64,000 nt of DNA from an uncultured Gammaproteobacteria bacterium (GTDB lineage: Bacteria > Patescibacteriota > Patescibacteriia > Magasanikbacterales > GWA2-37-8): assembly GCA_964478235.1 (NCBI GenBank), contig CAYZGX010000002.1, forward strand, positions 20,677 to 84,676, read 5' to 3'. The notes below the pieces were generated by a model. That model did no database searches. It saw nothing but the letters and a program-made list of their open reading frames with translations, and was not told where the DNA came from. This document shows positions 4,194 to 21,225 of this stretch, piece after piece; position 1 is the first letter of the stretch; every line of letters starts with the position of its first letter. The position numbers and the translations under genes are program-made.

Positions 4194-4991
4194 ATGTCGG
4201 TGATTATTTCTGTTGTTAACCAAAAAGGTGGGGTGGGAAAGACGACAACGGCAGTCAATTTAGCCGCTGGTTTAGCGGAAGCTGGTAAGTTTGTCCTTCT
4301 CGTTGATCTGGATCCCCAAGGGAATGCTACGTCTGGTTTGGGGCTCAAATATCAAGAAATGGAGAAGGGGCTGTACCACGCCCTCATGTCACAACATAGG
4401 ATTCACGATGTCACCTATAACACCGGCCATGCCGGGCTACGCATTGTACCTTCATCGCCAGATTTAGCCGGGGCTAATGTTGAGCTTGTGAGTGTGGAAG
4501 GGCGCGAAAGTAAGCTATCTGACATTTTGAGCGAAGTACGCCACGCCTACGACTATATTATCATTGATTCGCCACCGTCGCTTGGTCTTTTGACCCTGAA
4601 CGGTTTGGTCGCCGCTGACAAAATTATGATTCCGGTGCAGGCCGAATACTACGCGCTCGAAGGGCTCGGACAATTGCTCAAAACAATTGAACTGGTGCGC
4701 GACAATATTAAGCCAGAAATTGAAGTTATGGGGGCAGTGGTCACCATGTACGATAGTCGCAACCGATTGTCTGAAGAAGTTATGCAAGAATTGGTGAAAT
4801 ATTTCCCAAATACTATTTTTGGATCGGTGATTCCACGCACCGTGCGCCTCGCTGAAGCTCCAAGTTTTGGAAAAAGTATTTTTCACTATGAGCCGGGTGG
4901 CAAAGCTGCTAAATCCTATGAGCGATTAGCCCAAGAGGTGATGGCGATGTTTGAAAAGCCAGCAACACCTGAAAACGAACAACAATCATAA
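4194..4991 (+). CDS. parA: Chromosome partitioning ATPase ParA/Soj
   Basis: Deviant Walker A motif KGGVGKTT and conserved ParA length. Confidence 0.9.
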   Translation: MSVIISVVNQKGGVGKTTTAVNLAAGLAEAGKFVLLVDLDPQGNATSGLGLKYQEMEKGLYHALMSQHRIHDVTYNTGHAGLRIVPSSPDLAGANVELVSVEGRESKLSDILSEVRHAYDYIIIDSPPSLGLLTLNGLVAADKIMIPVQAEYYALEGLGQLLKTIELVRDNIKPEIEVMGAVVTMYDSRNRLSEEVMQELVKYFPNTIFGSVIPRTVRLAEAPSFGKSIFHYEPGGKAAKSYERLAQEVMAMFEKPATPENEQQS

Positions 4992-5011: not shown

Positions 5012-5866
5012 ATGTCCATTGGACGAGGGCTTGGAGCCTTAATTACCACAACCAACAGTGCTAAAAAGCCAGCTATTCAGTCGCGCGGGCTCGAAAGCTC
5101 CGATCGTGTCTGGCACGTGCCAGTGTCGGAGATTAAACCTGACAGCGACCAACCTCGTCGTCATTTTAAACCAGAAGAATTGCAAGAATTGTCTGACTCT
5201 ATCAAAGAGCATGGTATTTTGCAGCCGTTATTGGTGAGCGAACTGCCTGATGGTGGCTACCAGCTGATTGCTGGGGAGCGTCGCTGGCGTGCAGCTCAGA
5301 TGGCGCATATTGCCACCGTACCAGTGATTGTTAAAAAGCTGGCCGACGAACAGCGTCTCGAGGTCGCCTTGATTGAAAACATTCAGCGCCAAGACTTAAA
5401 TGCTCTTGAAGAAGGTTTTGCTTATAAGCGTCTCATTGAGGAATTTGGTTTGACGCAAGAACAAGTAGCTGACAAGGTGGGCAAAAGTCGTCCCGCTATC
5501 GCCAACATGATTCGTCTACTCAATCTTCCTGAAGAAGTACAAAATGCCCTGGTCACCGGAAAGATTTCCACTGGCCAAGCCAGATCGCTTCTTACTTTGG
5601 ATGATAAAAAACAACAGCTCGACATGCTCGCTTCAATGCTTGGAGAAAAAATGACCGTCCGCGAGGTAGAGAAGCAAGTACAAAAAACAACCGCACCAAC
5701 CAAGCTAGCTCGACGCGATCCAAACATCTTGTATGTCGAAGAGCAGCTCCGCTCAGCGCTCGGCACCAAAGTCACGGTGAATGGCAAAGACGACAAAGGT
5801 GCAGTGGTGATAAACTACTACTCCAAAGATGAGCTCAAAGAACTTATTAAAAAAATTACCGGTTAA
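5012..5866 (+). CDS. parB: Chromosome partitioning protein ParB/Spo0J
   Basis: ParB box GERRWRAA, an HTH region and a C-terminal dimerisation region. It is adjacent to parA. Confidence 0.9.
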   Translation: MSIGRGLGALITTTNSAKKPAIQSRGLESSDRVWHVPVSEIKPDSDQPRRHFKPEELQELSDSIKEHGILQPLLVSELPDGGYQLIAGERRWRAAQMAHIATVPVIVKKLADEQRLEVALIENIQRQDLNALEEGFAYKRLIEEFGLTQEQVADKVGKSRPAIANMIRLLNLPEEVQNALVTGKISTGQARSLLTLDDKKQQLDMLASMLGEKMTVREVEKQVQKTTAPTKLARRDPNILYVEEQLRSALGTKVTVNGKDDKGAVVINYYSKDELKELIKKITG

Positions 5867-9761: not shown

Positions 9762-10208
9762 ATGGAAACTGAAAACCAGCAACCTGATCTCACCCGCCGG
9801 ATTGATCCCGTACTCGATGCGGCCGATGACCGCCTAAAGAAAAATGCCGGTAAAGAAAAACCGCTTCCTCGACAAGAGCAGGCTGTAGTGATAGACAGTG
9901 GTTATAAGGCTGAAGTGCTAGCAAAAAATGAGGCAAAAATGATGCAAGCTGAAGCCTTAAAGAAAGCTCGTGAGGATCGTTTTAAAGATTCAAACTATGT
10001 GCAAGAGTTACGAGGTGTTTTTCAAGCTCTTCAGCGTGGTGAATTGACGACTGATATTGACCGTCAAAAATTAGATGATATTGAAGCTTTAATTGATTTT
10101 AGCAAAAATGTTAAAGAGACAATGGATAAGGGGCATACTATGGTTTTTGATATGCACACCTCGGACGTCGCTGCGCAAGTGCTGACTAAACCAAAAAAAG
10201 TATCGTGA
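9762..10208 (+). CDS. Hypothetical charged protein
   Basis: 148-aa ORF with a downstream terminator. No recognisable motifs. Confidence 0.45.
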   Translation: METENQQPDLTRRIDPVLDAADDRLKKNAGKEKPLPRQEQAVVIDSGYKAEVLAKNEAKMMQAEALKKAREDRFKDSNYVQELRGVFQALQRGELTTDIDRQKLDDIEALIDFSKNVKETMDKGHTMVFDMHTSDVAAQVLTKPKKVS

Positions 10209-10333
10209 CCTAGAGCCGGTGAGCCTCGTGGGAGCACTAGAGGGCGCCAAGATATTTCCCCAGTCAAACCACCAACTCCGCCTGAAAAGAAGAAAGGTTT
10301 TCTCGCTCGATTATTTGGTTAAGCATTTGTATA

Positions 10334-10365
10334 AAACCGGCAAACATACTTTGTCGGTTTTTTTA
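10334..10365 (+). terminator. Intrinsic terminator between convergent genes
   Basis: aaccggcaaa...tttgtcggtt hairpin followed by ttttttt. Confidence 0.6.
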
Positions 10366-11247
10366 TTTGCGCTGTTTAGTTGGTGCGTAGTGAACGGCGT
10401 CAATTTTGATAATAAGACCGCTTAATTCCAAGGTAGTGAGCGTGCCAAGGAGGAGGGTATTAGACAAGTGGGTGAGCGTGGTAAGTTCATCGATTGTTCG
10501 GGGCATAATGGTGATTTCGGTCAGAACGATCTGCTCGGTTTCGGATAATGACAAGACCGGAGTGTTTACTTCTTGAATCACTGTGAGATGAAATAGTTCT
10601 AAAACATCTTCCACACTGGTAATAATAGAGGCTCCGCGTTTAATAAGGCTATTGCAACCTCGACCATAGAGCGAGGTAGTGGGGTGGGGCACAGCCATCA
10701 CTTCACGACCATATTCGAGAGCGTGGTAGGCGGTGATGAGTGCGCCGGATTTTTCGGGTGCTTCGACTACCAGCGTGCCGTGGGTAAGGCCAGCAATAAT
10801 TCGATTGCGAGCAGGGAAGGAGTATTGGGTGGGCCTAAAACCTTCTGGATATTCGCTCATAAGCGCTCCGCCAGAAGCAATAATTGTGTCAGCCAAGCCT
10901 CGGTGTGAGGCTGGATACACTGTGTGTTCATCAACTCCAGAGCCAAGAACAGCGAGCGTGGTTCCGCCGGCACGCAGGACCGCTTCGTGTACTTTACCAT
11001 CAATGCCGAGAGCCAGACCGCTCACGACCACCACTCCAATCCGAGCCAGTTCAAAAGACAACATTTCGGCCATATAGATACCATACGGGGTGGGGCGACG
11101 AGTGCCGACAATAGCAATATGCGGACGAGCGTCATCGGGCAGTGCTCCACGCACAAAAAGAGTATCCGGCGGACTGTGTATTTCGGCTAAACGGAGTGGG
11201 TAGTCGGTGTCGGAGCTCTGAATAGTGCGAATGTCTTCATGAGGCAT
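10363..11247 (-). CDS. dprA: DNA processing protein DprA/Smf
   Basis: Rossmann-like DprA motifs IAIVGTRRPTPYG and GLALGIDG, ending in EAPEKSGALITA. Confidence 0.85.
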   Translation of the reverse strand: MPHEDIRTIQSSDTDYPLRLAEIHSPPDTLFVRGALPDDARPHIAIVGTRRPTPYGIYMAEMLSFELARIGVVVVSGLALGIDGKVHEAVLRAGGTTLAVLGSGVDEHTVYPASHRGLADTIIASGGALMSEYPEGFRPTQYSFPARNRIIAGLTHGTLVVEAPEKSGALITAYHALEYGREVMAVPHPTTSLYGRGCNSLIKRGASIITSVEDVLELFHLTVIQEVNTPVLSLSETEQIVLTEITIMPRTIDELTTLTHLSNTLLLGTLTTLELSGLIIKIDAVHYAPTKQRK

Positions 11248-11300
11248 ATAAAAAAAGATAGACTATTGTCGTAGTCTATCAGGCGGGAGATAAAGAAAAG

Positions 11301-11831
11301 TTAAAGTAGTTGGCGAAGGTTATCAATAGCGTGATTGAAGATCTCGGATAGATGTTGCTGTTCTTCTTTGGTAAACTTCCCAAGAACAAAGTCAGCCGTG
11401 TCAGCAATAGGAGTTTCTTTGGGAGCAACACCAATGCGGAAACGAGTGAAATCGTTGGTACCAACTTTATCAATAATGGATTTCACACCATTATGACCAG
11501 CGGCGCCGCGAGCACTTTGAATGCGGATAGTGCCTAAAGGAATATCTTTATCGTCGTGAATAACAATGAGATCTTTTGGGGTGAGTTTGTAATAGGAGAG
11601 GAGGGCTTGAACAGCGTCACCAGAATTATTCATGAAAGTTTGCGGCTTCGCCAAGACAACGCGCTTGTCATAGAGTGCGGTTTTACAAATTTCGGCATGA
11701 TTTTTTCTATCCGGAGTGAACTGCTCTTCTTCGGTCATAGAGAGAATTCTGTCGAGCGTCAAAAAACCAACATTGTGACGGGTGAACATGTATTCTCTGC
11801 CAGGATTGCCAAGACCGACAATAAGTTTCAT
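11301..11831 (-). CDS. pth: Peptidyl-tRNA hydrolase
   Basis: MKLIVGLGNPG...TRHNVGF signature. Confidence 0.9.
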   Translation of the reverse strand: MKLIVGLGNPGREYMFTRHNVGFLTLDRILSMTEEEQFTPDRKNHAEICKTALYDKRVVLAKPQTFMNNSGDAVQALLSYYKLTPKDLIVIHDDKDIPLGTIRIQSARGAAGHNGVKSIIDKVGTNDFTRFRIGVAPKETPIADTADFVLGKFTKEEQQHLSEIFNHAIDNLRQLL

Positions 11832-11843
11832 ACAAATAAGACG

Positions 11844-13238
11844 TTAGTCTTTTGGGGCGTAGGTATGATGTTTGAGTTTGCTGAGCTTCATGACGATTGG
11901 AGCGGCAAAGAAGCCGAATTCAGCACGGAGACGATTAGCTACGAAGTGTACATAGGACATGTGCACCGAAGTGTTGGATTTGATAACCATTTCAAACATT
12001 GGCGGATTAAAACCAAGTTGATTGAGGGCGACCACGCGAGGGTGGCGAACACCGCGGTCTTTGGTTGGGAGTTTTTTGCGGAGAGTGCGTTTCAAGAAGT
12101 CTTTCAAAACCAATTCATCAACGACGATCTGACGACCTTCCCAGGCTTGTTTGATGAGTGGATAAATTTGGTGTACACGGTATTCGGTTTTGGCACTGAC
12201 AAATACCACTGGGGCATAGTCGAGGTGGGGGAACGAAACCAAAATATCTTTTTTAACATTATTGCGGAATTCATCACTATTGTCGTCGGCCTGATCCCAT
12301 TTGTTGACTACGATAATCACACTGCGAGTGTGCTCGCGGAGTAAGCCGGCTAATTGCTGGTCTTGATCGGAAATTGGTTCGGTAGCATCGAGTACGAGTA
12401 GAACGATGTCGGATTTGTTTACCGTCGCAATACTTTTGCTAATACCCATTTTTTCGAGTTCGCCGGATACTTTTGTTTTTCGGCGGATACCAGCGGTGTC
12501 AACGAAGAGAATGTGCTGACCGTCAACTTCAACGAGCGTATCGTGTGGTTCGCGAGTCGTATGTGGCATATCACTTACAATAACACGATCTTCACCGATG
12601 AGTTTGTTGAAGAGAGATGATTTACCAACATTTGGTTTGCCCATGATGGACACCTTGATAAGCGAGATATCATCTTTGATAGCCTTAGGTCGGCGTTTTG
12701 TTTTATTGAGTTGTTTGAAAACCAAATCAAGCACGTCGCCGATGTTGCTACCATTGGCTGCTGAAGTTGGGGTTGGAGCACCAAAACCAAGCTTCATCCA
12801 TTCCTTGTTATACACTTCAGTGTGCAAAGCGATGGTGTCGGCTTTGTTGGCTACCAAGAGAACCGGTTTTTTATCAACATTTTTCTTGAGGCGTCGAGCG
12901 AGCTCGCGTTCTTGAGGGAGAATACCTGAGGTGATATCAATCACAAACACAATCACATCAGCTTCTTTGAGAGCAATTTCTGTTTGTTTAATAATATCGT
13001 CTTCGAGCGGAACTTCTTCAGAAAAAGTGAGACCGCCGGTATCAATCATGCGGAATTGTTTACCGCGCCAGGTAGCAATCGCAACATTGCGAGTGCGGGT
13101 GGTACCAGGGATGTCGGAAACGAGGGCTAAATTTTGCTCAATAATTTTATTGAAAAGAGATGATTTACCAACATTAACACGGCCAACCAGAGCAACGGTA
13201 GGAAGGTTATTATCAATAATTGTAGCAGGTGTGGCCAT
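11844..13238 (-). CDS. der: Ribosome-associated GTPase Der/EngA
   Basis: Two tandem G domains (GRVNVGKSSLFN and GKPNVGKSSLFN) plus a KH-like C-terminus. Confidence 0.9.
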   Translation of the reverse strand: MATPATIIDNNLPTVALVGRVNVGKSSLFNKIIEQNLALVSDIPGTTRTRNVAIATWRGKQFRMIDTGGLTFSEEVPLEDDIIKQTEIALKEADVIVFVIDITSGILPQERELARRLKKNVDKKPVLLVANKADTIALHTEVYNKEWMKLGFGAPTPTSAANGSNIGDVLDLVFKQLNKTKRRPKAIKDDISLIKVSIMGKPNVGKSSLFNKLIGEDRVIVSDMPHTTREPHDTLVEVDGQHILFVDTAGIRRKTKVSGELEKMGISKSIATVNKSDIVLLVLDATEPISDQDQQLAGLLREHTRSVIIVVNKWDQADDNSDEFRNNVKKDILVSFPHLDYAPVVFVSAKTEYRVHQIYPLIKQAWEGRQIVVDELVLKDFLKRTLRKKLPTKDRGVRHPRVVALNQLGFNPPMFEMVIKSNTSVHMSYVHFVANRLRAEFGFFAAPIVMKLSKLKHHTYAPKD

Positions 13239-13247
13239 AATAGAGTT

Positions 13248-14705
13248 TTATTCTTTGGTGTCTGCGCCCAAGATAACAAGGACATCAGCTTCTTGGTTGT
13301 ATTTCATACCTGATTCGTCTTCGGTCGTCTCAGGGTTATTGTATCCAATGAGGAGCCAATCAGGCAAAACGGTGAGAACCGGCGCTTTGAGCTGATCGCT
13401 CAGAGCTTTGGTTGAAGCTCGAGAAACCGCTGGATTTAGCAAATAAATGGCTGTTTTCTCAATTGGGCGTTTTAAACTGTTCCCCACCGTTATAACAGAA
13501 AAACCCTTTTCTTGCAACCGTTCACGCATTCTAGCAGCCAAACCGACCCGCCAGGTGCCATTTTGAAGCTCCACCTTAAAGTTGGAATATACCACTGTCC
13601 CAGGGGTAGAAGTGGCTGGTTTTGGGTAGATTAAAGCTGGGGTGACCGCCAAAGAAGGGGTAGAAGTAGAGCTGAAAATACCAGCAATGGCAGTGTTGAC
13701 GTTGGTGTAGTCGCCAGTCTTTGGGAAGAGGAGAAATGCTCCACTCTCGCCGGTGGTGCTCACCAAAAAACCAGCTGGAGAGTTATCAAGCACGAGATTT
13801 TTTGGTGAAGAGCCAAACTCGCCGGCCATGCGTGCAAGAGAGGTCAACTCAGTGATACTTAGATTAGTGGTGACATGAGCTTTGAGCGAACTTAAAATTT
13901 GTTGGATGGTGAGTGGGTTAGTGTAAGTACCAGCGGACAGAAGCTTTTGTTTGAGCGACAGGATTACCAGCTGTTGGCGACGAGCGCGAGCAAAGTCACC
14001 GCCTTCACCGTTGTTGCCGTGGCGTGAGCGGGCAAAGGTGAGGGCTGTTTCGCCGTTCATCGTTTGCGGACCAGCTTCAAAACGAACAGTGCGGAAACTA
14101 AAATTTTCTCCAGGGAATTGTGTATCAGTAAAGGTGGTTGGCACGTTGACCTGCACTCCACCGACCGCATCAATCATATCGGTAAACGCTTTGAAATCCA
14201 CGCGAATATAATAGGGGATAGGTTGGTCAAAGGTTTTTTCAAATACTTGGCGAGCAAATTCACCGCCCTGACCTGGCGACTGTGCTTCGCCGTAGGCCCC
14301 AGCGTAGTTAATTTTTCGGACACCTTGGTTAGGAATAGTGACGCCCAAATCACGAGGGATAGAGATCATTGCCACTTCTTTGGTGGACGGTTTAATGCTG
14401 AGAATTAGGTTGGTATCGGTGAGATAGGGACCGTCATGACCAGCACCACCCATGCCAAGAAGTAGAATATTAATTCTATCTTCAGCTTGTCCTTGGAGAG
14501 ATGGTTCATCGGCAAAAATAAAGTTTTTGACCGTTTGAAGCAAGCCTTGTTCGCGAGGGTGCAAAGTGACGCCGGCAATAGTGAACGAAGATAAAGCTGA
14601 CCAAAAAAGAGCGCATAATAAAAAAAGACCAGCAAAGAGACTGATGAAAATAAGCGGTCGTTTGGAAGATTTTTTGGGAAGTAAATTAACTGGTTCGTTA
14701 GTCAT
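13248..14705 (-). CDS. LytR-CpsA-Psr (LCP) family cell-envelope phosphotransferase
   Basis: N-terminal TM segment. LCP core motifs INILLLGMG...DTNLILSI...ISIPRDL. The start is set at MTNEPVNLL. Confidence 0.75.
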   Translation of the reverse strand: MTNEPVNLLPKKSSKRPLIFISLFAGLFLLCALFWSALSSFTIAGVTLHPREQGLLQTVKNFIFADEPSLQGQAEDRINILLLGMGGAGHDGPYLTDTNLILSIKPSTKEVAMISIPRDLGVTIPNQGVRKINYAGAYGEAQSPGQGGEFARQVFEKTFDQPIPYYIRVDFKAFTDMIDAVGGVQVNVPTTFTDTQFPGENFSFRTVRFEAGPQTMNGETALTFARSRHGNNGEGGDFARARRQQLVILSLKQKLLSAGTYTNPLTIQQILSSLKAHVTTNLSITELTSLARMAGEFGSSPKNLVLDNSPAGFLVSTTGESGAFLLFPKTGDYTNVNTAIAGIFSSTSTPSLAVTPALIYPKPATSTPGTVVYSNFKVELQNGTWRVGLAARMRERLQEKGFSVITVGNSLKRPIEKTAIYLLNPAVSRASTKALSDQLKAPVLTVLPDWLLIGYNNPETTEDESGMKYNQEADVLVILGADTKE

Positions 14706-14835
14706 ACAGAAAAAAAGGACGTCGCAAGCATCGTTGTATAAGTATACCACAGTAAAGGTATAAATCAATCTTGGTTTTTTGTCGCCAGATATGCTATACT
14801 AAAGCCTAGTCTCTAGCTTTCTCAAAAAGAATAGT

Positions 14836-15339
14836 ATGCCAAAAGATCTTCTCAAAGAAAATGTGGCCACCGGACGGGTTGTCTATGAATGGTGGGTCAA
14901 AGAATACGAAAAAAGAGAGCGCTCCAAGCGCTGGTATATGATTGCTGCTATTAGTGTAGTGGGGCTTTTGGCGTACAGTCTTATTTCTCAAAATTATTTG
15001 TTTTCACTCATCGTCGTGTTATTTGGCATTATTGTCTATCTGCATGATATGCAGAATCCAATCGATGTTTATTTTGCTATCACCGAAGTAGGGGTTATTC
15101 TGGGTAAGAAATTTTATCGCTACAACGAACTTTCTACGTTTTGGATTATTTACAATCCGCCAGAGGTAAAAAATTTGTACTTTACCCTTAATAATATGGT
15201 AAAACATCGTTTACAAGTGCCTCTCCTTGATTATGATCCACGTCCGGTTCGTGACTATCTTAAAAAATTCCTCAAAGAAGATTTAGATCAAGAAGAAGAG
15301 CCGATGAGTGATCGCCTCGCTCGCACCTTTAAACTCTAG
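14836..15339 (+). CDS. Hypothetical membrane protein
   Basis: 167 aa with two hydrophobic helices. No recognisable motifs. Confidence 0.45.
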   Translation: MPKDLLKENVATGRVVYEWWVKEYEKRERSKRWYMIAAISVVGLLAYSLISQNYLFSLIVVLFGIIVYLHDMQNPIDVYFAITEVGVILGKKFYRYNELSTFWIIYNPPEVKNLYFTLNNMVKHRLQVPLLDYDPRPVRDYLKKFLKEDLDQEEEPMSDRLARTFKL

Positions 15340-15348
15340 AAGCCTACA

Positions 15349-15430
15349 GTAACAAACGCCATTGTAAGCGCAAAATCGTACCTACTGGACTTGACAAAAA
15401 CGGTACGAACGCTTACAATGGCGTTTGTTA
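15349..15430. repeat. Perfect 21-bp inverted repeat enclosing the tRNA-Arg promoter
   Basis: aacaaacgccattgtaagcg ... cgcttacaatggcgtttgtt. The right arm overlaps the -10 hexamer. Confidence 0.6.
15391..15419 (+). promoter_or_regulatory. Sigma70-type promoter of tRNA-Arg
   Basis: TTGACA, a 17-bp spacer, then TACAAT, about 21 nt upstream of the mature tRNA 5' end. Confidence 0.6.
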
Positions 15431-15440
15431 TCTAGCCCCT

Positions 15441-15512
15441 GCACTCATCGTTCAATGGATAGGACATTGGCCTGCGAAGCCGAAAATTTAGGTTCGACTC
15501 CTAATGAGTGCA
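15441..15512 (+). tRNA. tRNA-Arg, anticodon GCG by manual fold
   Basis: Acceptor GCACTCA/TGAGTGC, D-arm GTTC-AATGGATA-GGAC with A20, anticodon stem TTGGC/GCCGA, loop CTGCGAA, T-arm TTAGG-TTCGACT-CCTAA, discriminator A. Confidence 0.7.
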
Positions 15513-15594
15513 CAAACTCCGAGCCTGTTGAACAGGCTCAGCTCATCGAAAAACGGCGCTAACCTGCGCTGTTTTTCGTTTCACGAGCGTCGTT

Positions 15595-17052
15595 CTAGGC
15601 GGACGTGGTCCCGTCCCGAAGAGATTTCGAACCTTCGAGCAGTCCGCGAATCACGGGAGTGAGTCGAAGTGTCGGCTTCAGGCTCGACAGGTCGACGCGC
15701 TCAACCACGGTGGCGATCACCTCTCGGCGTTCGACCGGGTCAGTCGAGTTCTTGAGGGTGGTATCGAGACGCTCGAGTACCTGCTGCAGGCGGAGGTCGC
15801 CATCGCCAGGCTCTCGCTCGCGGCCGACCGCGAGTAGCCACTCGGTCGCGCGGATCTCGTCGCGGAGTTGCCGGCGGCGCTCCTCGTACTCGGATTCCTG
15901 CAGGTTCTGGTGGACGTAGGTCAGGGCGAGCGTCTTCAGTTCGCCATCGAGCCGTCGGCGTGCCGCTCGAAGCGCTCGGGTCCGTTCAGCCGAGTCCGCC
16001 CGTGCTGCCCGTCGAGCCGCTCGAATGCGGCGTTTCAGCACCGGCAGCAGGCGTGAGGGGAGGGCGGTGGCGAGTAGTTCGGCGGCGACTTCGTCCTCGA
16101 CGTCACCAGCTCGGCGCGAGTTCCGGCAGGCCTTCTGGTGGCACCGGTAGTACCGGTGCACCCGGCCCGACTTCTTCTTGTGCTCCTCGCCGACGAGGAG
16201 CGATCCGCACTGCGGACAGGCAACCAGCCGCGACAGCGTGAACGAGAGGGTCTGTCGAGCGCGGGCAGAATTGCCCCGTTTCGCTCGAAACACTGCCTGG
16301 CACCGTTCGAACAGATCTCGCGACACGAGCGGCGCGTGGGTTCCGGCGTACGTCCCGCCGCCGGCGACCATCGTGCCAACGTAGAACGGATTCTGGAGGA
16401 TCCGGCACAGCTCGGTGTTCCGGACGCGGTTGTTGTGGGTCGAGACGAGCCCTGCTCTCCAGAGTTCCTCGGCGAGCTGCTCGGACGTGAGGGTGCCGGT
16501 CGCCCAGCGGTCGAAGGCCAGCTGGATGAACCGCGCTCGTGCTGGATCAGGTACCGCTCGACGTCGCTCCATCCGGTACCCGATCGGAGGCAGTGAAGCC
16601 CAGACGCCGCGTCGTAGACGCTCGTCGAGGCCTTTTTTGACTTCAGCCGCCAGGTTGGCGGAGTAGAATTCTGCTTGTGCAGCCATAATGTGTTCAATGA
16701 ACTCGCCCATGGGGGAGGCCTCGATGGTCTCGACGACCGAGAGAACGCGGACGCCGACGGACCGGAGGCGTCCCTTGAGGACGAGATAGTTAAAGGTGTC
16801 GCGTGAAAGCCGGTCGAGCTTGTGGACGAGGAGTCCGTCGATCGACCGGTCACCGGTGGCCGCCTGGACGGCGGCCATGAGCCCCGGCCGATCCCTGAGG
16901 GAGCGCGCCGAGGCGATGTCTTGGAACCGACCTGCGACCGTGAGGTCGTGGTCCTTGGCGTAGTGTTCCATGAGGTGGAACTGCGCCGACAGCGAGAGCT
17001 CGCGGTCCGCCTGACGGGCGGTCGAGACGCGAGCGTAGAGGAGGATAGCCAT
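15595..17052 (-). CDS. Large serine recombinase (resolvase/integrase family)
   Basis: N-terminal catalytic domain (LYARVSTARQ with the catalytic Ser), a recombinase domain, a Cys4 zinc ribbon (CPQC...CHQKAC) and a C-terminal coiled coil. The gene is about 64% GC. Confidence 0.85.
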   Translation of the reverse strand: MAILLYARVSTARQADRELSLSAQFHLMEHYAKDHDLTVAGRFQDIASARSLRDRPGLMAAVQAATGDRSIDGLLVHKLDRLSRDTFNYLVLKGRLRSVGVRVLSVVETIEASPMGEFIEHIMAAQAEFYSANLAAEVKKGLDERLRRGVWASLPPIGYRMERRRAVPDPARARFIQLAFDRWATGTLTSEQLAEELWRAGLVSTHNNRVRNTELCRILQNPFYVGTMVAGGGTYAGTHAPLVSRDLFERCQAVFRAKRGNSARARQTLSFTLSRLVACPQCGSLLVGEEHKKKSGRVHRYYRCHQKACRNSRRAGDVEDEVAAELLATALPSRLLPVLKRRIRAARRAARADSAERTRALRAARRRLDGELKTLALTYVHQNLQESEYEERRRQLRDEIRATEWLLAVGREREPGDGDLRLQQVLERLDTTLKNSTDPVERREVIATVVERVDLSSLKPTLRLTPVIRGLLEGSKSLRDGTTSA

Positions 17053-17108
17053 ACGCGTTGGTTAGTGAGTGACGTAGGTATCCTGACAGAGTAGGGTAGC
17101 AGGTGACG

Positions 17109-17146
17109 AGAGTCCCGTCGCCGGTGCAAACCGGCACGTTTGTGCC
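17109..17146. repeat. Direct repeat DR1 (38 bp) upstream of the cargo gene, in the divergent promoter region
   Basis: gagtcccgtcgccggtgcaaaccggcacgtttgtgcc; 33 of 37 positions are identical to DR2. Confidence 0.7.
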
Positions 17147-17210
17147 TCTTTGCGCCATTGTCGGCTTCGGGGTGTCATGGTACGCTACGAGAATCCAGAA
17201 GGGGACCTAT

Positions 17211-18713
17211 ATGCCAAAAAAACAGAAAAAATTACTCATCTACTTCTCAGACTATTTCGACGTGGATCCGAAGACGATCCTCGAGTTTGGCGCGTTCAAC
17301 GTCTCCCTCATCAATGACCTCCCTCTATTTATCGATCCGTTTCTCCTGTTTAGCAGCGAGTCGGAGGAATACCGGACCCTGCACGCTGACATCATTCGCT
17401 ACGTCTCCTTTCTGCGAGACAAGGCAGCAACCGGGACGCTGCCGCCGGGCAACCTGAAGGCATGGTTCATGTTTCCCGAGGTCAAGCAGACGTGGCTTGG
17501 CTTCTCTCGGGTCGGCAACTCGGGCTCGGGGCTCGGAATGAACTTCGCCCAGGCTCTCTGCCGGAATCTTCACGCACTCTTTCAGGACTTCGGCGCAGAG
17601 AGTGTCACGAAGAGTAGCCACCTCGAAAAGCTCTGTCTGATCGACGATGGTGTTGGCCGCGACAATATCAGCGACTTCACAACTAACCTGATCAAGAAGT
17701 TCCTGCTCACCTACACGCAGGAGTTCGCGCAGACAAAGCTCAAGCCACACCAAAGGAAGGCGTTTCGAGTCCCCAAGGTCGAGTTCGACTATGACACGGA
17801 GACCTGGAGCCCCCGCACGTTTGTGCTCCCGTGCGTCGAAAACGACTTCGTCGTCCTGACGCCGCGTGACCTCCTCACGAAGGATGAAACTTGGATCAAC
17901 CGGACGGACCTCTACGAACAGTTCGACGACATCGTGCAGGCGGTGCCGGACGATCAGCTTCGCGCGCAGATCAACAACTATCTTGTGTCGAAGTTGCCAA
18001 AGCGAGGGCGAAAGGACAAGGAGCCGACCCAAAAGGAACGCCGTCTCGCTGTCGCGCTCGTCCTTCAGAAATATCCCACGCTGCTCGATTACTACCTTCG
18101 CCACAAAGAGGACAGCGGCGATGAGGCCGAGGCAATCTCTGAGCGTCGAGTCGACGAATCCGAGACTGTTTTCATCAAGGGAGTGCTGAGATTCGTGGAG
18201 CAATTGTCTCAGGAAACGCAGTTCTATGAGACGAGCGATAGCTCGCATGCTGAGGCGAGGAAGCGCGTCTTGTTTCTGAAGGACGTCATCGAGAACATGG
18301 ATGGCTACCGCCTCTTCTACGGGGCCAACAGGAAGCCAGTGCGTCGAGAGGCCGATGTCCATCTCCTGTTTCGACTCACCTGGTACGCGACTTTGCAGGA
18401 TGTAAATCGAGAGGTGAACAATGGGCGTGGGCCAGTCGACTTCAAGGTCTCGCGCGGCGCTCGAAACGCCAGTCTCGTTGAGTTCAAACTAGCGTCGAAC
18501 AGTAAGCTCGAGTCCAACCTGGCGAATCAGGTCGAGATCTACAAGCGCGCTAGTGGAGCCGAGCATGCGCTTAAAGTCATCGTGTACTTCACGCGATCTG
18601 AGCTCGCCAGGGTGAATCGGATTTTGAAGAAGCTCGAACTGCGCGAAGATCCAAACGTGATTCTGATTGATGCGCGTGGCGACAACAAACCGTCCGCATC
18701 CAAGGTTCGCTAA
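17211..18713 (+). CDS. Hypothetical 500-aa cargo protein with a C-terminal RecB-like PD-(D/E)xK nuclease motif set
   Basis: The start is at MPKKQKK (17211). The C-terminus carries GPVDFKV (D), LVEFKL (ExK) and QVEIY (QxxxY). The N-terminal 350 aa has no recognisable family. About 62% GC. Confidence 0.65.
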   Translation: MPKKQKKLLIYFSDYFDVDPKTILEFGAFNVSLINDLPLFIDPFLLFSSESEEYRTLHADIIRYVSFLRDKAATGTLPPGNLKAWFMFPEVKQTWLGFSRVGNSGSGLGMNFAQALCRNLHALFQDFGAESVTKSSHLEKLCLIDDGVGRDNISDFTTNLIKKFLLTYTQEFAQTKLKPHQRKAFRVPKVEFDYDTETWSPRTFVLPCVENDFVVLTPRDLLTKDETWINRTDLYEQFDDIVQAVPDDQLRAQINNYLVSKLPKRGRKDKEPTQKERRLAVALVLQKYPTLLDYYLRHKEDSGDEAEAISERRVDESETVFIKGVLRFVEQLSQETQFYETSDSSHAEARKRVLFLKDVIENMDGYRLFYGANRKPVRREADVHLLFRLTWYATLQDVNREVNNGRGPVDFKVSRGARNASLVEFKLASNSKLESNLANQVEIYKRASGAEHALKVIVYFTRSELARVNRILKKLELREDPNVILIDARGDNKPSASKVR

Positions 18714-18766
18714 TTCTGATGGATGAGTCGTGCCGCCTCGTCCGAACCACTTCTTAGCGAACGATA

Positions 18767-18804
18767 AGAGTCTCTTCGCCGGTGCAAAACGGCACGTTCG
18801 TGCC
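18767..18804. repeat. Direct repeat DR2 (38 bp) downstream of the cargo gene
   Basis: gagtctcttcgccggtgcaaaacggcacgttcgtgcc. Confidence 0.7.
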
Positions 18805-18867
18805 GGTGCCAACGTCGATTTCCGCTGAGGTTTGCGAAAGTGCAGTTCTAAGATAGTCCTCTCTTGT

Positions 18868-18912
18868 GCACGAAATAAAATACCCCCATTTATGGGGGTA
18901 TTTTATTTCGTG
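18868..18912. repeat. Perfect 20-bp-stem palindrome
   Basis: cacgaaataaaataccccca-ttta-tgggggtattttatttcgtg. Confidence 0.8.
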
Positions 18913-19056
18913 TTCTCTTTAAGAGGAGTCGAACGGGGAAGGGAGAAACCGGAAGGTTTCTCATGCGGAGGAAAGGTATCGGAAAACCCGAAGGTTTTTC
19001 CGAAGAGGTCCCGACTTGGTCGGGACCGAGTTCGACTCCGGTGTAAACAGTAGCAG

Positions 19057-19150
19057 ATAAAACATAGGGCCGATATGCTTTTTCTCCTGATGCCCCGGCA
19101 TATGTCAAAAAAGCATATCGGCCCTATGTTTTTGTTTTTCTCACCCCCTT
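19057..19150 (+). terminator. Very long perfect hairpin plus U-run immediately upstream of recG
   Basis: aaaacatagggccgatatgcttttt ... aaaaagcatatcggccctatgtttt, a 22-24-bp stem with a nested palindromic loop, followed by tttttgttttt. Confidence 0.6.
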
Positions 19151-19170
19151 GGTGCTATACTACCGCCACT

Positions 19171-21225
19171 ATGGAATTGACCACTCGCTTGGCCCAGCTA
19201 CCTCGTGTAGGAAAATCAACAGTTGCCCGCTTAGAACGCCTCGGCCTCAGGACCGTCTATGATTTGTTATATTATTTCCCATTTCGTTACGAAGATTTCC
19301 GCCAGTGTCTGCCGATTAAACAACTAATTGAAGGCCAGGCGGTGACGGTCAAAGGCCGGATTGAGCTTATCGCCAATCGGCGTAGTTTTAAAACGAGAAA
19401 AACAATTACCGAAGCGCTGGTCTCTGATGAATCGGGGAGTCTCCGGGTGATTTGGTTTAACCAGCCGTTTATTACCAACAACCTGGCTTCTGGGGACGCG
19501 GTGTATCTGTCGGGAGTGGTGAAATCAGATATGCTCGGGCCACAGCTTGTTGGTCCAACTTATGAAAAGGTGGTTGGCGAAGCCGTGCATACCGCTCGGT
19601 TGGTTCCGGTGTATGGCATTACCGAAGGTTTGCCTCAAAAACAAATCAGACAAATGGTAAAATATTGTGTAGACTCGCTTAAAGAAGTTCCCGATTGGGT
19701 ACCAGACATTATCAAAGAGCGCTTTGATCTTCCGCCGCTGATTGGTGCAATTCACGGCATTCATTTTCCAAGCGACGATGCGCACCTCGCTGAGAGCACT
19801 CGTCGACTTAAATTTGATGAGTTATTTTTGTTGCAACTTCAAGCCGAAATTGCTCGGCGTGACCGGGTGGCATCGTCTGCTCCAGCTTTGGTATTTCAAG
19901 AAACCAACATCAAAGAGTTTGTAGCCAAGCTGCCATTTACTCTCACTAAAACACAAAAAATAGCGACCTGGGAAATTTTAAAAGATATTGCTGAGCCTCG
20001 GCCGATGAATCGCCTGCTCTCGGGTGATGTTGGCTCGGGGAAGACGGTGGTGGCCGCTATCGCCCTCTACAACACTGCGCTCAATGGCTTCCAAGGTGTT
20101 CTTATGGCGCCAACCGAGATTTTGGCCAGCCAACATTTCGAAGGTGTTTCTAAACTACTTTCTACCCTGCCGGTCGCTTTAGTAACTCGTACGCAAAGAT
20201 ATGTGAGTGACAACGGAGTGGTGACTAAGGTCACCAAAAAAGCTCTCCACACTATGCTTGCCGAAGGAAAAATAGCGGTAAGCATCGGAACGCACGCGCT
20301 CCTCACTGAAGCGGTGCATTTTAAACAGCTCGGCCTCGTGATCGTCGATGAACAGCACCGTTTTGGGGTAATGCAGCGAAAAATTATGAAAGACAAAGGC
20401 GCTGGTGCGCATTTTTTGAGTATGACTGCTACCCCGATTCCACGCTCGCTCGCGCTCATGCTCTATGGCGATTTGGAAGTTTCTATTATTAGCGAACTGC
20501 CTCCAGGGCGAAAGAAGATTATCACCAAAGTAGTTGAGCCGGCCAAACGTGAGAAAGCCTATGGCTTTATTCGCGACCAAGTCAAAGCTGGGCGACAAGT
20601 ATTTGTGGTCTGCCCGCTGATTGAAGGGGTGGGGCAGGGGACAGTGGAGAAAAAATCCGTGATGATGGAGTATGAAAAACTATCGACGATTATTTTTCCA
20701 GATTTGAAAGTTGGTTTTTTACATGGAAAATTAAAACCAGAAGAAAAAGAAGCGGTGATGGAGCAATTTGAAAAAAATGAAATACATATTCTCGTCTCAA
20801 CCTCAGTTATTGAGGTGGGGGTGAATATTCCGAACGCCAGTATTATGATGATTGAAGGTGCCGACCGTTTTGGTCTCGCCCAGCTTCACCAATTTCGCGG
20901 GCGGGTGGGGCGATCGAGTTATCAGTCGTATTGTTTACTTTTTACTGACAACACCGCCAAAGCAGTTGTAGAGCGGTTGGGATATTTTGAAGCCCACCAT
21001 GATGGCTTTGCCTTGGCTGAAAAAGATTTAGAAATTCGCGGACCTGGGCAAATGTACGGGGTGGAGCAGAGTGGGTCAATGCGTTTGCGCCTCGCCACAC
21101 TATCAGACAGTGAAATTGTAAAACAAGCTCGGGAAGCTGCCCGGGGTATCGCGCCCAATCTGGCCAACTACCCTCCACTACAAAAAATGCTCCACGAGGT
21201 GGAGCAAAGTTTGCACTTGGAATAG
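19171..21225 (+). CDS. recG: ATP-dependent DNA helicase RecG
   Basis: Wedge-domain N-terminus, helicase motifs GDVGSGKT, DEQHRFG and QLHQFRGRVGR. The start is at MELTTRL; the upstream extension lies inside the palindrome. Confidence 0.9.
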   Translation: MELTTRLAQLPRVGKSTVARLERLGLRTVYDLLYYFPFRYEDFRQCLPIKQLIEGQAVTVKGRIELIANRRSFKTRKTITEALVSDESGSLRVIWFNQPFITNNLASGDAVYLSGVVKSDMLGPQLVGPTYEKVVGEAVHTARLVPVYGITEGLPQKQIRQMVKYCVDSLKEVPDWVPDIIKERFDLPPLIGAIHGIHFPSDDAHLAESTRRLKFDELFLLQLQAEIARRDRVASSAPALVFQETNIKEFVAKLPFTLTKTQKIATWEILKDIAEPRPMNRLLSGDVGSGKTVVAAIALYNTALNGFQGVLMAPTEILASQHFEGVSKLLSTLPVALVTRTQRYVSDNGVVTKVTKKALHTMLAEGKIAVSIGTHALLTEAVHFKQLGLVIVDEQHRFGVMQRKIMKDKGAGAHFLSMTATPIPRSLALMLYGDLEVSIISELPPGRKKIITKVVEPAKREKAYGFIRDQVKAGRQVFVVCPLIEGVGQGTVEKKSVMMEYEKLSTIIFPDLKVGFLHGKLKPEEKEAVMEQFEKNEIHILVSTSVIEVGVNIPNASIMMIEGADRFGLAQLHQFRGRVGRSSYQSYCLLFTDNTAKAVVERLGYFEAHHDGFALAEKDLEIRGPGQMYGVEQSGSMRLRLATLSDSEIVKQAREAARGIAPNLANYPPLQKMLHEVEQSLHLE

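What the first reader, a model, noticed from the sequence alone, without database searches (positions are those of the whole stretch)
15441..19040. GC-rich cassette integrated at tRNA-Arg: a large serine recombinase plus one nuclease-like cargo gene
Directly after the 3' end of tRNA-Arg the GC content jumps from about 45% to about 64% for some 3.3 kb, then falls back. The block holds only a 485-aa large serine recombinase (minus strand) and one divergently transcribed 500-aa protein. The same high GC makes any plus-strand ORF antisense to the recombinase suspect. I treat this as a very small integrative element with a single cargo gene. That layout is typical of mobile defence or abortive-infection modules. 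It is unusual for a phage remnant, because no structural or regulatory phage genes are present. It is my strongest candidate for an undescribed system in this window.
Basis: partly seen in the sequence, partly recalled or inferred. Interest (0 to 1): 0.85.

Follow-up and report, generated by a model that had tools for sequence, protein, structure and literature searches.

The report
Tiny serine-recombinase island carrying one nuclease
A 3.5-kb piece of foreign DNA sits right after a tRNA-Arg gene in a Patescibacteria (CPR) genome and carries only a large serine integrase and one uncharacterised nuclease that is probably an anti-phage gene; it is a clean but fairly ordinary example of an integrase-only defence islet.

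Summary
A close relative (L006) has tRNA-Arg followed 25 nt later by the recG leader. The window therefore carries a 3.54-3.61 kb insertion that starts at 15515. GC is not a flat 64%: the recombinase is 66%, the cargo 55%, the island 59% and the host 46%.

The minus-strand gene is an intact large serine recombinase (LSR). Its closest relatives are in Patescibacteria, and four related loci also place the gene next to a tRNA 3' end. One relative carries the known single-gene defence system Ppl as a divergent cargo.

The cargo is 500 aa. Its C-terminal domain is a PD-(D/E)xK nuclease with an invariant D410/E424/K426 motif. Its N-terminal 375 aa give a confident model with no solved-structure match. 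It belongs to a large family (DUF8370+DUF8371, phrog_30194). All 51 members tested share their N-terminal half with the untested PADLOC candidate PDC-M36A. Family members lie in defence islands and beside prophage integrases.

Verdict: an integrase-only mobile islet with a candidate defence nuclease, a new member of a known kind. Two features remain unexplained. A 56-60-nt direct repeat brackets the cargo alone, and a related element has one copy and no cargo. A 115-nt structured non-coding region lies at the right end.

The parts
15441..15513 (+). tRNA-Arg (anticodon GCG). Its 3' end is the integration target (attB side).
   Evidence: ARAGORN and Rfam tRNA at 62 bits. The sequence is identical in the empty-site relative L006.
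15514..15515 (.). Left junction. Homology to the empty site ends between 15514 and 15515.
   Evidence: BLAST of L006 against the window ends at 15514. L006 reads GAGTGCACA|TATT and the window reads GAGTGCACA|AACT.
15547..15578 (.). GC-rich hairpin flanked by A and T runs (CGAAAAACGGCGC...GCGCTGTTTTTCG). It is a likely bidirectional terminator for the tRNA and the recombinase gene.
   Evidence: Inverted repeat I24. A homologous hairpin occupies the same position in L091.
15595..17052 (-). Large serine recombinase, 485 aa, intact.
   Evidence: Pfam Resolvase 9e-28, Recombinase 7e-10, Zn_ribbon_recom 6e-7. phrog_95 integrase 2e-76. Catalytic S10 and R8 are invariant in the clade alignment. PDB matches: catalytic domain to resolvases and TP901-1, residues 219-320 to A118 integrase.
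17053..17210 (.). Divergent intergenic region between the recombinase and the cargo. It contains repeat copy D1-1.
   Evidence: Sequence. The recombinase-proximal part is homologous to L091 (z 5.5). No sigma-70 consensus was found.
17109..17168 (+). D1-1, the first copy of the direct repeat. Its core is the imperfect palindrome GGTGCAAAC-CGGCAC-GTTTGTGCC.
   Evidence: 38 nt, 34/38 identical. extends it to 56-60 nt with a 4-nt indel. Only two copies occur in 64 kb against 0 expected. z = 18 against shuffles.
17211..18713 (+). Cargo of 500 aa: an N-terminal domain of unknown fold (DUF8370) plus a C-terminal PD-(D/E)xK nuclease (DUF8371).
18767..18822 (+). D1-2, the second copy of the direct repeat, 54 nt after the cargo stop codon.
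18869..18912 (+). Perfect 21-nt-arm AT-rich hairpin followed by a T-rich tail. It is a likely cargo terminator and part of the element backbone.
   Evidence: Inverted repeat I4 and terminator scan. The region 18844-18907 is homologous to sequence just after the single D1 of L091 (z 3.4, 6/500 shuffles).
18925..19039 (+). Structured non-coding region: a 10-bp closing stem around three hairpins. Function unknown.
   Evidence: RNA fold of 18905-19060 gives -64.8 kcal/mol, z = -4.7, 0/200 shuffles as stable. No Rfam family matches. No relatives were found.
19030..19039 (+). GTTCGACTCC, an exact direct repeat of the tRNA-Arg T-arm 10-mer at 15492-15501. It is a possible att-arm motif or tRNA-derived remnant.
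   Evidence: 0 of about 2800 background segments scored as high. The 10-mer is also the 3' strand of the closing stem.
19055..19126 (.). Zone of the right junction. Unambiguous host homology resumes at 19127. The hairpin at 19059-19132 probably replaces the host's tRNA terminator.
   Evidence: BLAST of L006 resumes at 19127. By eye, CAGATAAAACA at 19054-19064 resembles L006's CATATTAAAAACA.

Best explanation
This is a non-autonomous mini genomic island of about 3.54 kb (15515 to about 19055). A large serine recombinase inserted it immediately 3' of tRNA-Arg in a Patescibacteria (CPR) chromosome.

Inferred mechanism for the element: the recombinase acts as the integrase, recombining a site on the circular element with the tRNA 3' end. 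It belongs to a clade, named as Patescibacteria wherever its members carry a name, that repeatedly sits against tRNA 3' ends in very small elements. The element has no replication gene, no transfer gene and no recognisable directionality factor. Spread between cells would therefore need transformation or a helper element.

Inferred mechanism for the cargo: the single cargo is a stand-alone PD-(D/E)xK DNA endonuclease fused to a 375-aa N-terminal domain of unknown fold. That domain most likely acts as a sensor or target-recognition module. The protein most probably serves as a single-gene anti-phage or anti-mobile-element defence that also favours retention of the island.

Status of each step:
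- Shown: the insertion polymorphism, the domain content, the intact catalytic motifs, the nuclease fold, and the genomic contexts of both families.
- Inferred: integrase activity at this site, nuclease activity, and the defence role.
For: Empty site in a close relative.

LSR domain set and invariant catalytic Ser10.

The related LSRs that carry names are from Patescibacteria or Uhrbacteria. Four related loci place the LSR near a tRNA 3' end:
- L091: a tRNA 3' end with CCA, and the same terminator hairpin.
- L090: tRNA-Ala 46 nt after the LSR stop codon.
- L187: tRNA-Ser.
- L086: tRNA-Ser 1.9 kb away.

All six related LSR genes checked are 8-17 GC points richer than their flanks.

L184, whose LSR is 50% identical, carries a divergently transcribed 894-aa protein that matches the PADLOC single-gene system Ppl at 1e-37.

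Cargo family contexts:
- Directly after a helicase-DUF1156-DUF499 cluster and before GmrSD.
- Beside Hachiman, with another LSR.
- Beside Kiwa KwaA/KwaB.
- Beside a PLD-helicase-DUF3427 protein.
- Next to tyrosine or serine integrases at prophage ends.

All 51 family members match the N-terminal half of PDC-M36A. The PDC systems are untested 'guilt-by-embedding' candidates (bioRxiv 10.1101/2024.01.29.577857).
Against: No att sites could be defined convincingly. The dyad at the left junction scores 10/22, which is not significant, and neither the right junction (best 9/22) nor the reconstructed attP (nothing reached 11/22) gave a stronger dyad.

There is no directionality factor and no evidence of a circular form. 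The only other sample holding the element gives an identical sub-contig.

The defence role rests only on neighbourhood and fold; no member of the family has been tested. The PADLOC match is to a multi-gene candidate and covers only half of the protein, and no partner gene is present here.

The nuclease could instead serve the element itself. The repeat that brackets only the cargo is not explained by a simple 'one element, one integration' model.
Confidence: 0.7

Rival explanations
1. The island is composite. An LSR-only backbone acquired the cargo as a separate cassette by recombination at the D1 site. The backbone is tRNA junction, terminator, LSR, D1, AT-rich hairpin. The LSR clade would then act as a platform that swaps single defence genes, loosely like an integron but built on a serine recombinase.
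For: A 56-60-nt direct repeat brackets the cargo alone and leaves the recombinase outside it (z = 18). L091 (LSR 60% identical) has the same backbone in the same order with one D1-like site and no cargo. Its homology to the window is collinear: LSR-proximal region z 5.5, D1-1 z 5.6, the region right of D1-2 z 3.4, and no match to the cargo 5' region. The D1 core is an imperfect palindrome, and L091's version keeps the symmetry through paired changes. A related LSR carries a different single cargo, Ppl. D1 resembles the island's right end weakly (P about 0.04).
Against: There is only one instance. L184 (LSR + Ppl), L005 and L190 show no flanking repeats. Large serine recombinases normally recombine unlike attP and attB sites, not two near-identical sites. 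Homologous deletion between the repeats would also yield an L091-like single copy. The L091 contig ends about 65 nt past the hairpin, so its right end is not seen. GC3 of LSR and cargo is similar (77% vs 72%), so separate origins are not required.
Confidence: 0.15
2. The cargo is not a defence gene. It is a selfish maintenance or mobility factor of the element, for example an addiction-type or homing-type nuclease, or a nuclease that processes the excised circle. The D1 sites and the structured right end would be its cis-acting targets.
Against: Homologues occur with unrelated integrases, near TerL, and inside defence islands where no integrase was seen among the called neighbouring genes. That pattern fits cargo better than a dedicated partner. 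The cargo-less L091 element keeps the same backbone. D1-like repeats are absent around homologues.
Confidence: 0.1
3. A decayed prophage or larger island remnant, in which the recombinase and the nuclease are the last surviving genes and are no longer mobile.
For: No directionality factor, replication gene or transfer gene is present. The right end (18913-19055) is non-coding and contains a tRNA-like 10-mer. No circular form was detected.
Against: Both ORFs are full length with all family-invariant residues. Comparison with L006 shows a single clean insertion with no phage genes on either side. Related LSRs sit in similarly tiny units bounded by tRNAs: the L189 contig of 2.9 kb runs from tRNA to tRNA, and L091 is under 2 kb. 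GC3 remains strongly foreign, so there has been no amelioration.
Confidence: 0.05

Closest known systems
Integrase-only defence-carrying mobile islands (Hochhauser et al. 2023, PLoS Genet, PMC10121019)
   Same: A small island present in only some genomes, inserted at a tRNA-type hotspot, holding an integrase or recombinase plus a defence or candidate defence gene, with no other mobility genes and an unclear mode of transfer.
   Different: Those islands were described in E. coli. [quoted passage not shown] Here the host is a Patescibacteria bacterium, the integrase is a large serine recombinase, the island is only 3.5 kb, and the cargo is an untested family.
Large serine integrases of phages and elements (A118/LI, TP901-1, phiC31, Bxb1; SCCmec CcrA/B/C; Tn4451 TnpX; XisF)
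   Same: The domain architecture is the same: a resolvase catalytic domain with a Ser nucleophile, a recombinase domain and a zinc ribbon. NCBIfam gives sub-threshold similarity to XisF, CcrB and CcrA. From general knowledge, Ccr and TnpX elements also carry cargo without phage genes.
   Different: Every NCBIfam score is far below its family cut-off (85 vs 375 bits for XisF, 83 vs 900 for CcrB), so it is not a member of those named families. The nearest relatives form a separate clade; those that carry names are from Patescibacteria. The target is a tRNA 3' end, which from general knowledge is more typical of tyrosine integrases. No directionality factor or Mob gene is present.
PADLOC candidate PDC-M36 (subunit A), DUF8370/DUF8371 and phrog_30194
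   Same: All 51 family members tested match the PDC-M36A profile (best 3e-24). The window protein matches phrog_30194 over its full length (2e-32). Precomputed Pfam annotation gives DUF8370+DUF8371.
   Different: The PDC-M36A match covers only residues 29-257, which correspond to profile positions 23-246 of 457. PDC-M36 is a multi-gene candidate, whereas this gene stands alone. None of these families has a demonstrated function.
Stand-alone PD-(D/E)xK defence nucleases (Shedu SduA, McrC, Cas4/Can2-type effectors, type II restriction enzymes)
Integron cassettes, and accretion arrays of cis-mobilisable elements (SCC composites, CIMEs)
   Same: A recombinase gene is transcribed divergently from a cargo gene that is bracketed by direct repeats containing an imperfect palindrome.
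   Different: There is no tyrosine IntI. The repeats are 56-60 nt and near-identical, rather than an attI plus an attC. Only one cassette is seen. No repeat copy could be shown at the tRNA junction (P 0.2-0.85).

Membership tests
Large serine recombinase (serine integrase) | N-terminal resolvase-type catalytic domain with the nucleophilic serine | tested here: met
   PF00239 at 9e-28 over residues 4-151. S10, R8 and other residues are invariant in the 23-sequence clade alignment. PDB matches to gamma-delta resolvase and the TP901-1 integrase catalytic domain.
Large serine recombinase (serine integrase) | C-terminal recombinase domain plus zinc-ribbon domain | tested here: met
   PF07508 at 7e-10 and PF13408 at 6e-7. 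Residues 219-320 align to A118 integrase. Cys279, Cys282 and Cys304 are invariant and Cys309 is nearly so (>=90%).
Large serine recombinase (serine integrase) | Short attP/attB sites with dyad half-sites around a 2-bp crossover | tested here: inconclusive
   The left junction is placed to within 1 nt by comparison with L006. The dyad centred at 15512|15513 scores 10/22, which is not significant after multiple testing. Neither the right junction nor the reconstructed attP gave a stronger dyad.
Integrative genomic island / integrative element | Presence/absence polymorphism at a conserved locus, next to a tRNA, with its own integrase | tested here: met
   L006 has the empty site, with a 25-nt interval. 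tRNA-Arg abuts the island. The LSR lies inside it. Base composition is foreign.
Integrative genomic island / integrative element | Excision to a circular form | not testable with these tools
   No reads are available. The only other sample gives an identical sub-contig covering 15484-18895. Its left end falls in the tRNA 3' half. By inference, its right end falls in a perfect palindrome that would break a de Bruijn assembly.
PD-(D/E)xK (restriction-endonuclease-like) nuclease superfamily | Alpha-beta-beta-beta-alpha-beta core fold with the catalytic D...(D/E)xK motif | tested here: met
PD-(D/E)xK (restriction-endonuclease-like) nuclease superfamily | Metal-dependent nuclease activity | not testable with these tools
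   This needs biochemistry.
PADLOC candidate system PDC-M36 | Full-length match to subunit A | tested here: not met
   The match covers only residues 29-257, corresponding to profile positions 23-246 of 457, at E 3e-21. The same partial match is seen in all 51 relatives. The cargo is therefore a relative that shares one domain, not a member.
PADLOC candidate system PDC-M36 | Presence of the partner gene or genes of a multi-gene system | tested here: not met
   Apart from the recombinase gene and the chance ORFs overlapping it, the island has no other plausible ORF; 18714-19126 holds only short unconserved ORFs. Neighbours of homologues gave no PDC-M36B hit.
Anti-phage defence system | Recurrent location in defence islands or mobile-element accessory hotspots | tested here: met
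   About 15 distinct homologue loci were examined. Four abut known or candidate defence genes: an Hma-like cluster plus GmrSD, Hachiman, Kiwa, and a PLD-helicase. About five abut integrases at prophage or element ends. The sample is small and no statistics were run.
Anti-phage defence system | Experimental protection against phage | not testable with these tools
   No paper mentions PDC-M36, DUF8370 or DUF8371. The PDC systems are explicitly untested.
Integron | Tyrosine integrase IntI with attI and attC cassette sites | tested here: not met
   The only recombinase is of the serine family. The repeats are near-identical 56-60-mers.
Prophage remnant | Phage structural, replication or regulatory genes in or beside the block | tested here: not met
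   The island holds only two genes. The flanks (a 167-aa membrane protein, recG, radA) are collinear with L006.

The most novel reading that the evidence does not exclude
A Patescibacteria-associated clade of tRNA-targeting large serine recombinases forms the smallest known class of defence-gene shuttles, with single defence genes (here the DUF8370/8371 nuclease, elsewhere Ppl) loaded and unloaded as cassettes at a palindromic D1 site next to the recombinase promoter, so that it works as a serine-recombinase analogue of an integron. The 115-nt structured right end would be a cis element needed for transfer or regulation.
Probability: 0.12. Interest if true: 0.8.

Novelty: new member of a known kind. 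Interest (0 to 1): 0.42.

Why it matters
Little appears to be written on mobile elements of CPR/Patescibacteria: my one search combining 'serine recombinase', 'Patescibacteria' and 'mobile genetic element' returned a single, unrelated paper. This locus is a clean case with an empty-site control. It shows that a 3.5-kb unit, consisting of a serine integrase plus one gene, can deliver a candidate immune gene to a tRNA locus. It also shows that related integrases do the same with a known defence gene, Ppl.

The cargo family is very large: more than 2,400 clusters at 50% identity, spread across many phyla, with about 56-65% identity among the closest 120 relatives. It has a confident but unmatched N-terminal fold joined to a conserved nuclease. 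That makes it a good, cheap target for a phage-challenge screen.

The recombinase has a defined left junction and a known empty-site sequence. It could therefore be tested directly as a compact site-specific integrase.

Tried and rejected
1. Defining attL, attR and attP by symmetry. The left-junction dyad scores 10/22. The right junction (best 9/22) and the reconstructed attP (nothing reached 11/22) gave nothing stronger. None of this is significant.

2. Treating D1 as a copy of the island ends, as in a tandem accretion array. D1 against the left junction gives P 0.2-0.85. D1 against the right end gives P 0.04-0.1. D1 against the empty site gives nothing.

3. Looking for cargo-flanking repeats in other loci (L184, L005, L190). 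None were found. Repeats near other related LSRs turned out to be different things: a small duplicated ORF region in L090, a REP-like hairpin in L086, and duplicated LSR upstream regions in L088.

4. Looking for a conserved operator palindrome upstream of all clade LSRs. It is shared only by the window and L091.

5. The divergent 535-aa neighbour of the L086 LSR is unrelated to the cargo.

6. The metagenome scan with the LSR alignment returned only one close relative; the rest were at most 40% identical.

7. Searches for the D1 core and for the closing stem of the structured region in viral contigs gave nothing, or chance tRNA and coding matches.

8. Rfam found no family for the non-coding parts.

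10. My idea that the two GC levels prove separate origins for the two genes is weakened, because their GC3 values are similar.

11. Contigs from other samples were identical subsets and gave no information on variants or excision.

Full report
**1. The observation**

ARAGORN and Rfam place tRNA-Arg (anticodon GCG) at 15441-15513 on the plus strand. GC is 38-46% just upstream. It rises to 66-69% over 15600-17200, stays at 54-57% over 17200-18800, and falls to about 49% after that. Exact values are: host 46.1%, island 59.2%, recombinase gene 65.8% (GC3 77%) and cargo gene 55.2% (GC3 72%). Third-position GC is similarly foreign in both genes.

Two long ORFs fill the block. One is 15595-17052 on the minus strand (485 aa). 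The other is 17103-18713 on the plus strand. Its real start is very probably the ATG at 17211 (500 aa), because homologues align from there.

**2. It is a real insertion**

I searched one genome per species with RecG. The host falls among Patescibacteria (CPR), with Magasanikbacteria- and Falkowbacteria-like neighbours. One close relative was found, L006 (RecG 98% aa, DNA 86-89%). L006 aligns to window 9959-15514 and to 19127-21065, and only 25 nt separate the two blocks.

In L006 the tRNA is followed by a small terminator hairpin and then the recG leader. In the window, homology stops after GAGTGCACA at 15514. It resumes unambiguously at 19127. By eye, CAGATAAAACA at 19054-19064 looks like L006's CATATTAAAAACA. 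The long hairpin at 19059-19132 has the same AAAACA...TGTTTT outer stem as L006's terminator.

I therefore place the right end near 19055, giving an island of about 3.54 kb, with 19126 as the outer limit. The true recG start is the ATG at 19172, not 19075. The flanking genes are host genes collinear with L006, so nothing phage-like adjoins the block.

**3. The recombinase**

The protein matches Pfam Resolvase, Recombinase and Zn_ribbon_recom and the PHROG integrase family phrog_95 at 2e-76. Its catalytic domain matches resolvases and TP901-1 integrase in the PDB, and residues 219-320 match A118 integrase. In an alignment of 23 clade members, the nucleophile Ser10, Arg8 and three of the zinc-ribbon cysteines are invariant and the fourth is nearly so. 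NCBIfam scores for XisF, CcrA, CcrB and CcrC are far below their cut-offs, so it is not one of those named families.

The closest relatives are 42-60% identical. Those that carry names come from Patescibacteria or Uhrbacteria. Their contexts repeat the layout seen here:
- L091 (60% identical): a tRNA 3' end with CCA, about 30 nt of spacer, a homologous terminator hairpin, then the LSR in reverse orientation.
- L090: tRNA-Ala lies 46 nt beyond the LSR stop codon.
- L187: the LSR unit lies between two tRNA-Ser genes. A 2.9-kb contig from another sample ends inside both tRNAs.
- L086: tRNA-Ser lies 1.9 kb away.

In all six loci checked, the LSR gene is 8-17 GC points richer than its surroundings.

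**4. The cargo**

The local Pfam copy gives no hit. Precomputed annotation of homologues gives the new families DUF8370 + DUF8371. The protein matches phrog_30194 over its full length at 2e-32. Its N-terminal half matches the PADLOC candidate PDC-M36A (residues 29-257, 3e-21). All 51 relatives tested show the same partial match.

The PDC systems are 145 untested candidates predicted by 'guilt-by-embedding' (bioRxiv 10.1101/2024.01.29.577857). No paper mentions PDC-M36 or these DUFs.

The family is large. In the 50%-identity library, 2,452 clusters were hit. The closest relatives are 56-65% identical and come from Chloroflexota, Nitrospinae, Halomonas and Marinobacter, which indicates frequent horizontal transfer.

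**5. Contexts of cargo homologues**

- L002-L004: directly after a helicase-DUF1156-DUF499 cluster and before GmrSD, a PDDEXK_4 protein and an AAA_15/21 ATPase.
- L005: between Hachiman (HamA plus helicase) and an unknown gene, immediately preceded by a different LSR.
- L190 (closest homologue, 65% identical): next to a PLD-helicase-DUF3427 protein.
- Twelve viral or proviral contigs: next to tyrosine integrases (L174; L177, which is P2-like with GPA), another LSR (L176), a disrupted serine-recombinase gene read as two adjacent ORFs (L180/181), TerL (L172/173), Kiwa KwaA/KwaB (L178) and a tail sheath gene (L179).

This is the usual distribution of accessory or defence genes of mobile elements. 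It is not the distribution of a dedicated partner of one recombinase.

In L184, an LSR 50% identical to ours is paired with a divergently transcribed 894-aa PHP + ABC-ATPase protein. That protein matches the PADLOC single-gene system Ppl at 1e-37. So the clade carries at least one recognised defence gene in the same layout.

**6. Most likely mechanism**

I read the block as an integrase-only mini-island. The LSR integrates a roughly 3.5-kb circle at the tRNA-Arg 3' end. The cargo is a stand-alone nuclease whose N-terminal domain senses or selects its target, and it most probably acts in defence against phages or other invading DNA. The island encodes no directionality factor, replication function or transfer function (one search lists only short, unconserved ORFs). 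Excision and spread would therefore need host or helper functions, or transformation.

The insertion polymorphism, the domains, the motifs, the fold and the contexts are shown. The enzymatic activities and the defence role are inferred. Integrase-only defence-carrying islands with unclear mobilisation have been described in E. coli (PMC10121019). The kind is therefore known.

**7. What does not fit the simple model**

(a) A direct repeat brackets only the cargo. The copies are 17109-17146 and 18767-18804 (34/38 identical). With a 4-nt indel they extend to 17109-17168 and 18767-18822. The repeat occurs nowhere else in the 64 kb and scores z = 18 against shuffles. Its core is the imperfect palindrome GGTGCAAAC-CGGCAC-GTTTGTGCC.

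L091 has one D1-like copy (GGCGCAGAGCGGCATGATTGCGCC). That copy is followed almost at once by sequence homologous to the window's AT-rich hairpin region at 18844-18907. The matches are collinear, and the cargo is absent (z 5.5, 5.6 and 3.4). The cargo plus one repeat copy therefore behaves as an insertion or deletion relative to an LSR-only backbone.

This could reflect site-specific capture, or homologous deletion between the repeats. I found no comparable repeats around cargos in L184, L005 or L190. D1 is not significantly similar to the left junction and only marginally similar to the right end. I give the cassette model about 0.15.

(b) The last 130 nt of the island (18925-19039) fold into a 10-bp stem enclosing three hairpins (z = -4.7, 0/200 shuffles as stable). 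The region has no Rfam match and no relatives that I could find. The 3' strand of that stem, GTTCGACTCC at 19030-19039, is identical to the tRNA-Arg T-arm 10-mer at 15492-15501, a match absent from about 2,800 background comparisons. It may be an att-arm motif, a tRNA-derived remnant or part of a functional RNA. I could not decide between these.

(c) Symmetry tests did not define the att sites.

**8. Verdict**

The element is a new member of a known kind. The cargo belongs to a large, catalogued but untested family. The D1-bracketed cargo and the structured right end are the parts worth following up.

Noticed in passing
window 18925-19039: A 115-nt non-coding region folds as a 10-bp stem (GGAGTCGAAC/GTTCGACTCC) closing three hairpins with GGAA, CGAA and TTG loops. 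The fold z-score is -4.7. No Rfam family matches and no relatives were found. The 3' strand of the stem equals the tRNA-Arg T-arm 10-mer at 15492-15501.
   Followed up: partly
window 15350-15430: A perfect 21-nt inverted repeat (15350-15370 / 15410-15430) encloses a consensus promoter for the tRNA: TTGACA at 15391-15396, a 17-nt spacer, and TACAAT at 15414-15419. The arrangement is conserved in L006.
   Followed up: no
window 19059-19172: A long hairpin (36-nt arms, 86% complementary) stands where L006 has a short tRNA terminator. The ORF-list start of recG (19075) lies inside this hairpin. The conserved start is the ATG at 19172 (MELTTRLAQ).
   Followed up: partly
window 15441-15513: The tRNA-Arg has anticodon GCG and no encoded CCA. 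From my own knowledge, ACG is the more common bacterial anticodon for this codon box, so GCG is a less common choice.
   Followed up: no
L184 1037-5461: An LSR 50% identical to the window's is paired with a divergently transcribed 894-aa PHP + ABC-ATPase protein that matches the PADLOC single-gene defence system Ppl (1e-37). The layout is the same as in the window.
   Followed up: partly
L090 3600-7000: Upstream of a related LSR (48% identical) that abuts tRNA-Ala, GC-rich genes (SLT, a 206-aa unknown, PNP_UDP) alternate with AT-rich spacers. Two of the spacers carry a 60-nt repeat (4553-4612 and 5765-5824, 80% identical). The pattern looks like an array.
   Followed up: no
L088 6763-9491: An LSR gene is followed by a second ORF carrying only the Recombinase domain, and each is preceded by a copy of a 76-nt repeat (79% identical). 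This suggests tandem copies of a minimal LSR unit.
   Followed up: no
L187 5009-5242: Next to a related LSR, a 74-nt stretch covering most of a tRNA-Ser is duplicated exactly 141 nt away (5028-5101 and 5169-5242). This may be an att-type duplication.
   Followed up: no
L002 1-11298: A cargo homologue (63% identical) follows directly after a helicase-DUF1156-DUF499 cluster (Hma-like) and precedes a GmrSD protein, a PDDEXK_4 protein and an AAA_15/21 ATPase. This is a dense defence island.
   Followed up: partly
L001 (= window 15484-18895): A Logan contig from SRR12487046 is 100% identical to the island. It starts inside the tRNA 3' half and ends at the centre of the perfect palindrome 18869-18912. 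These contig breaks fit an assembly-graph branch at the tRNA junction and a palindrome artefact.
   Followed up: partly
L086 4876-4935 and 6224-6283: A 60-nt hairpin-containing repeat (88% identical), resembling a REP or MITE element, occurs twice near a related LSR. It lies inside ORFs that were probably miscalled.
   Followed up: no
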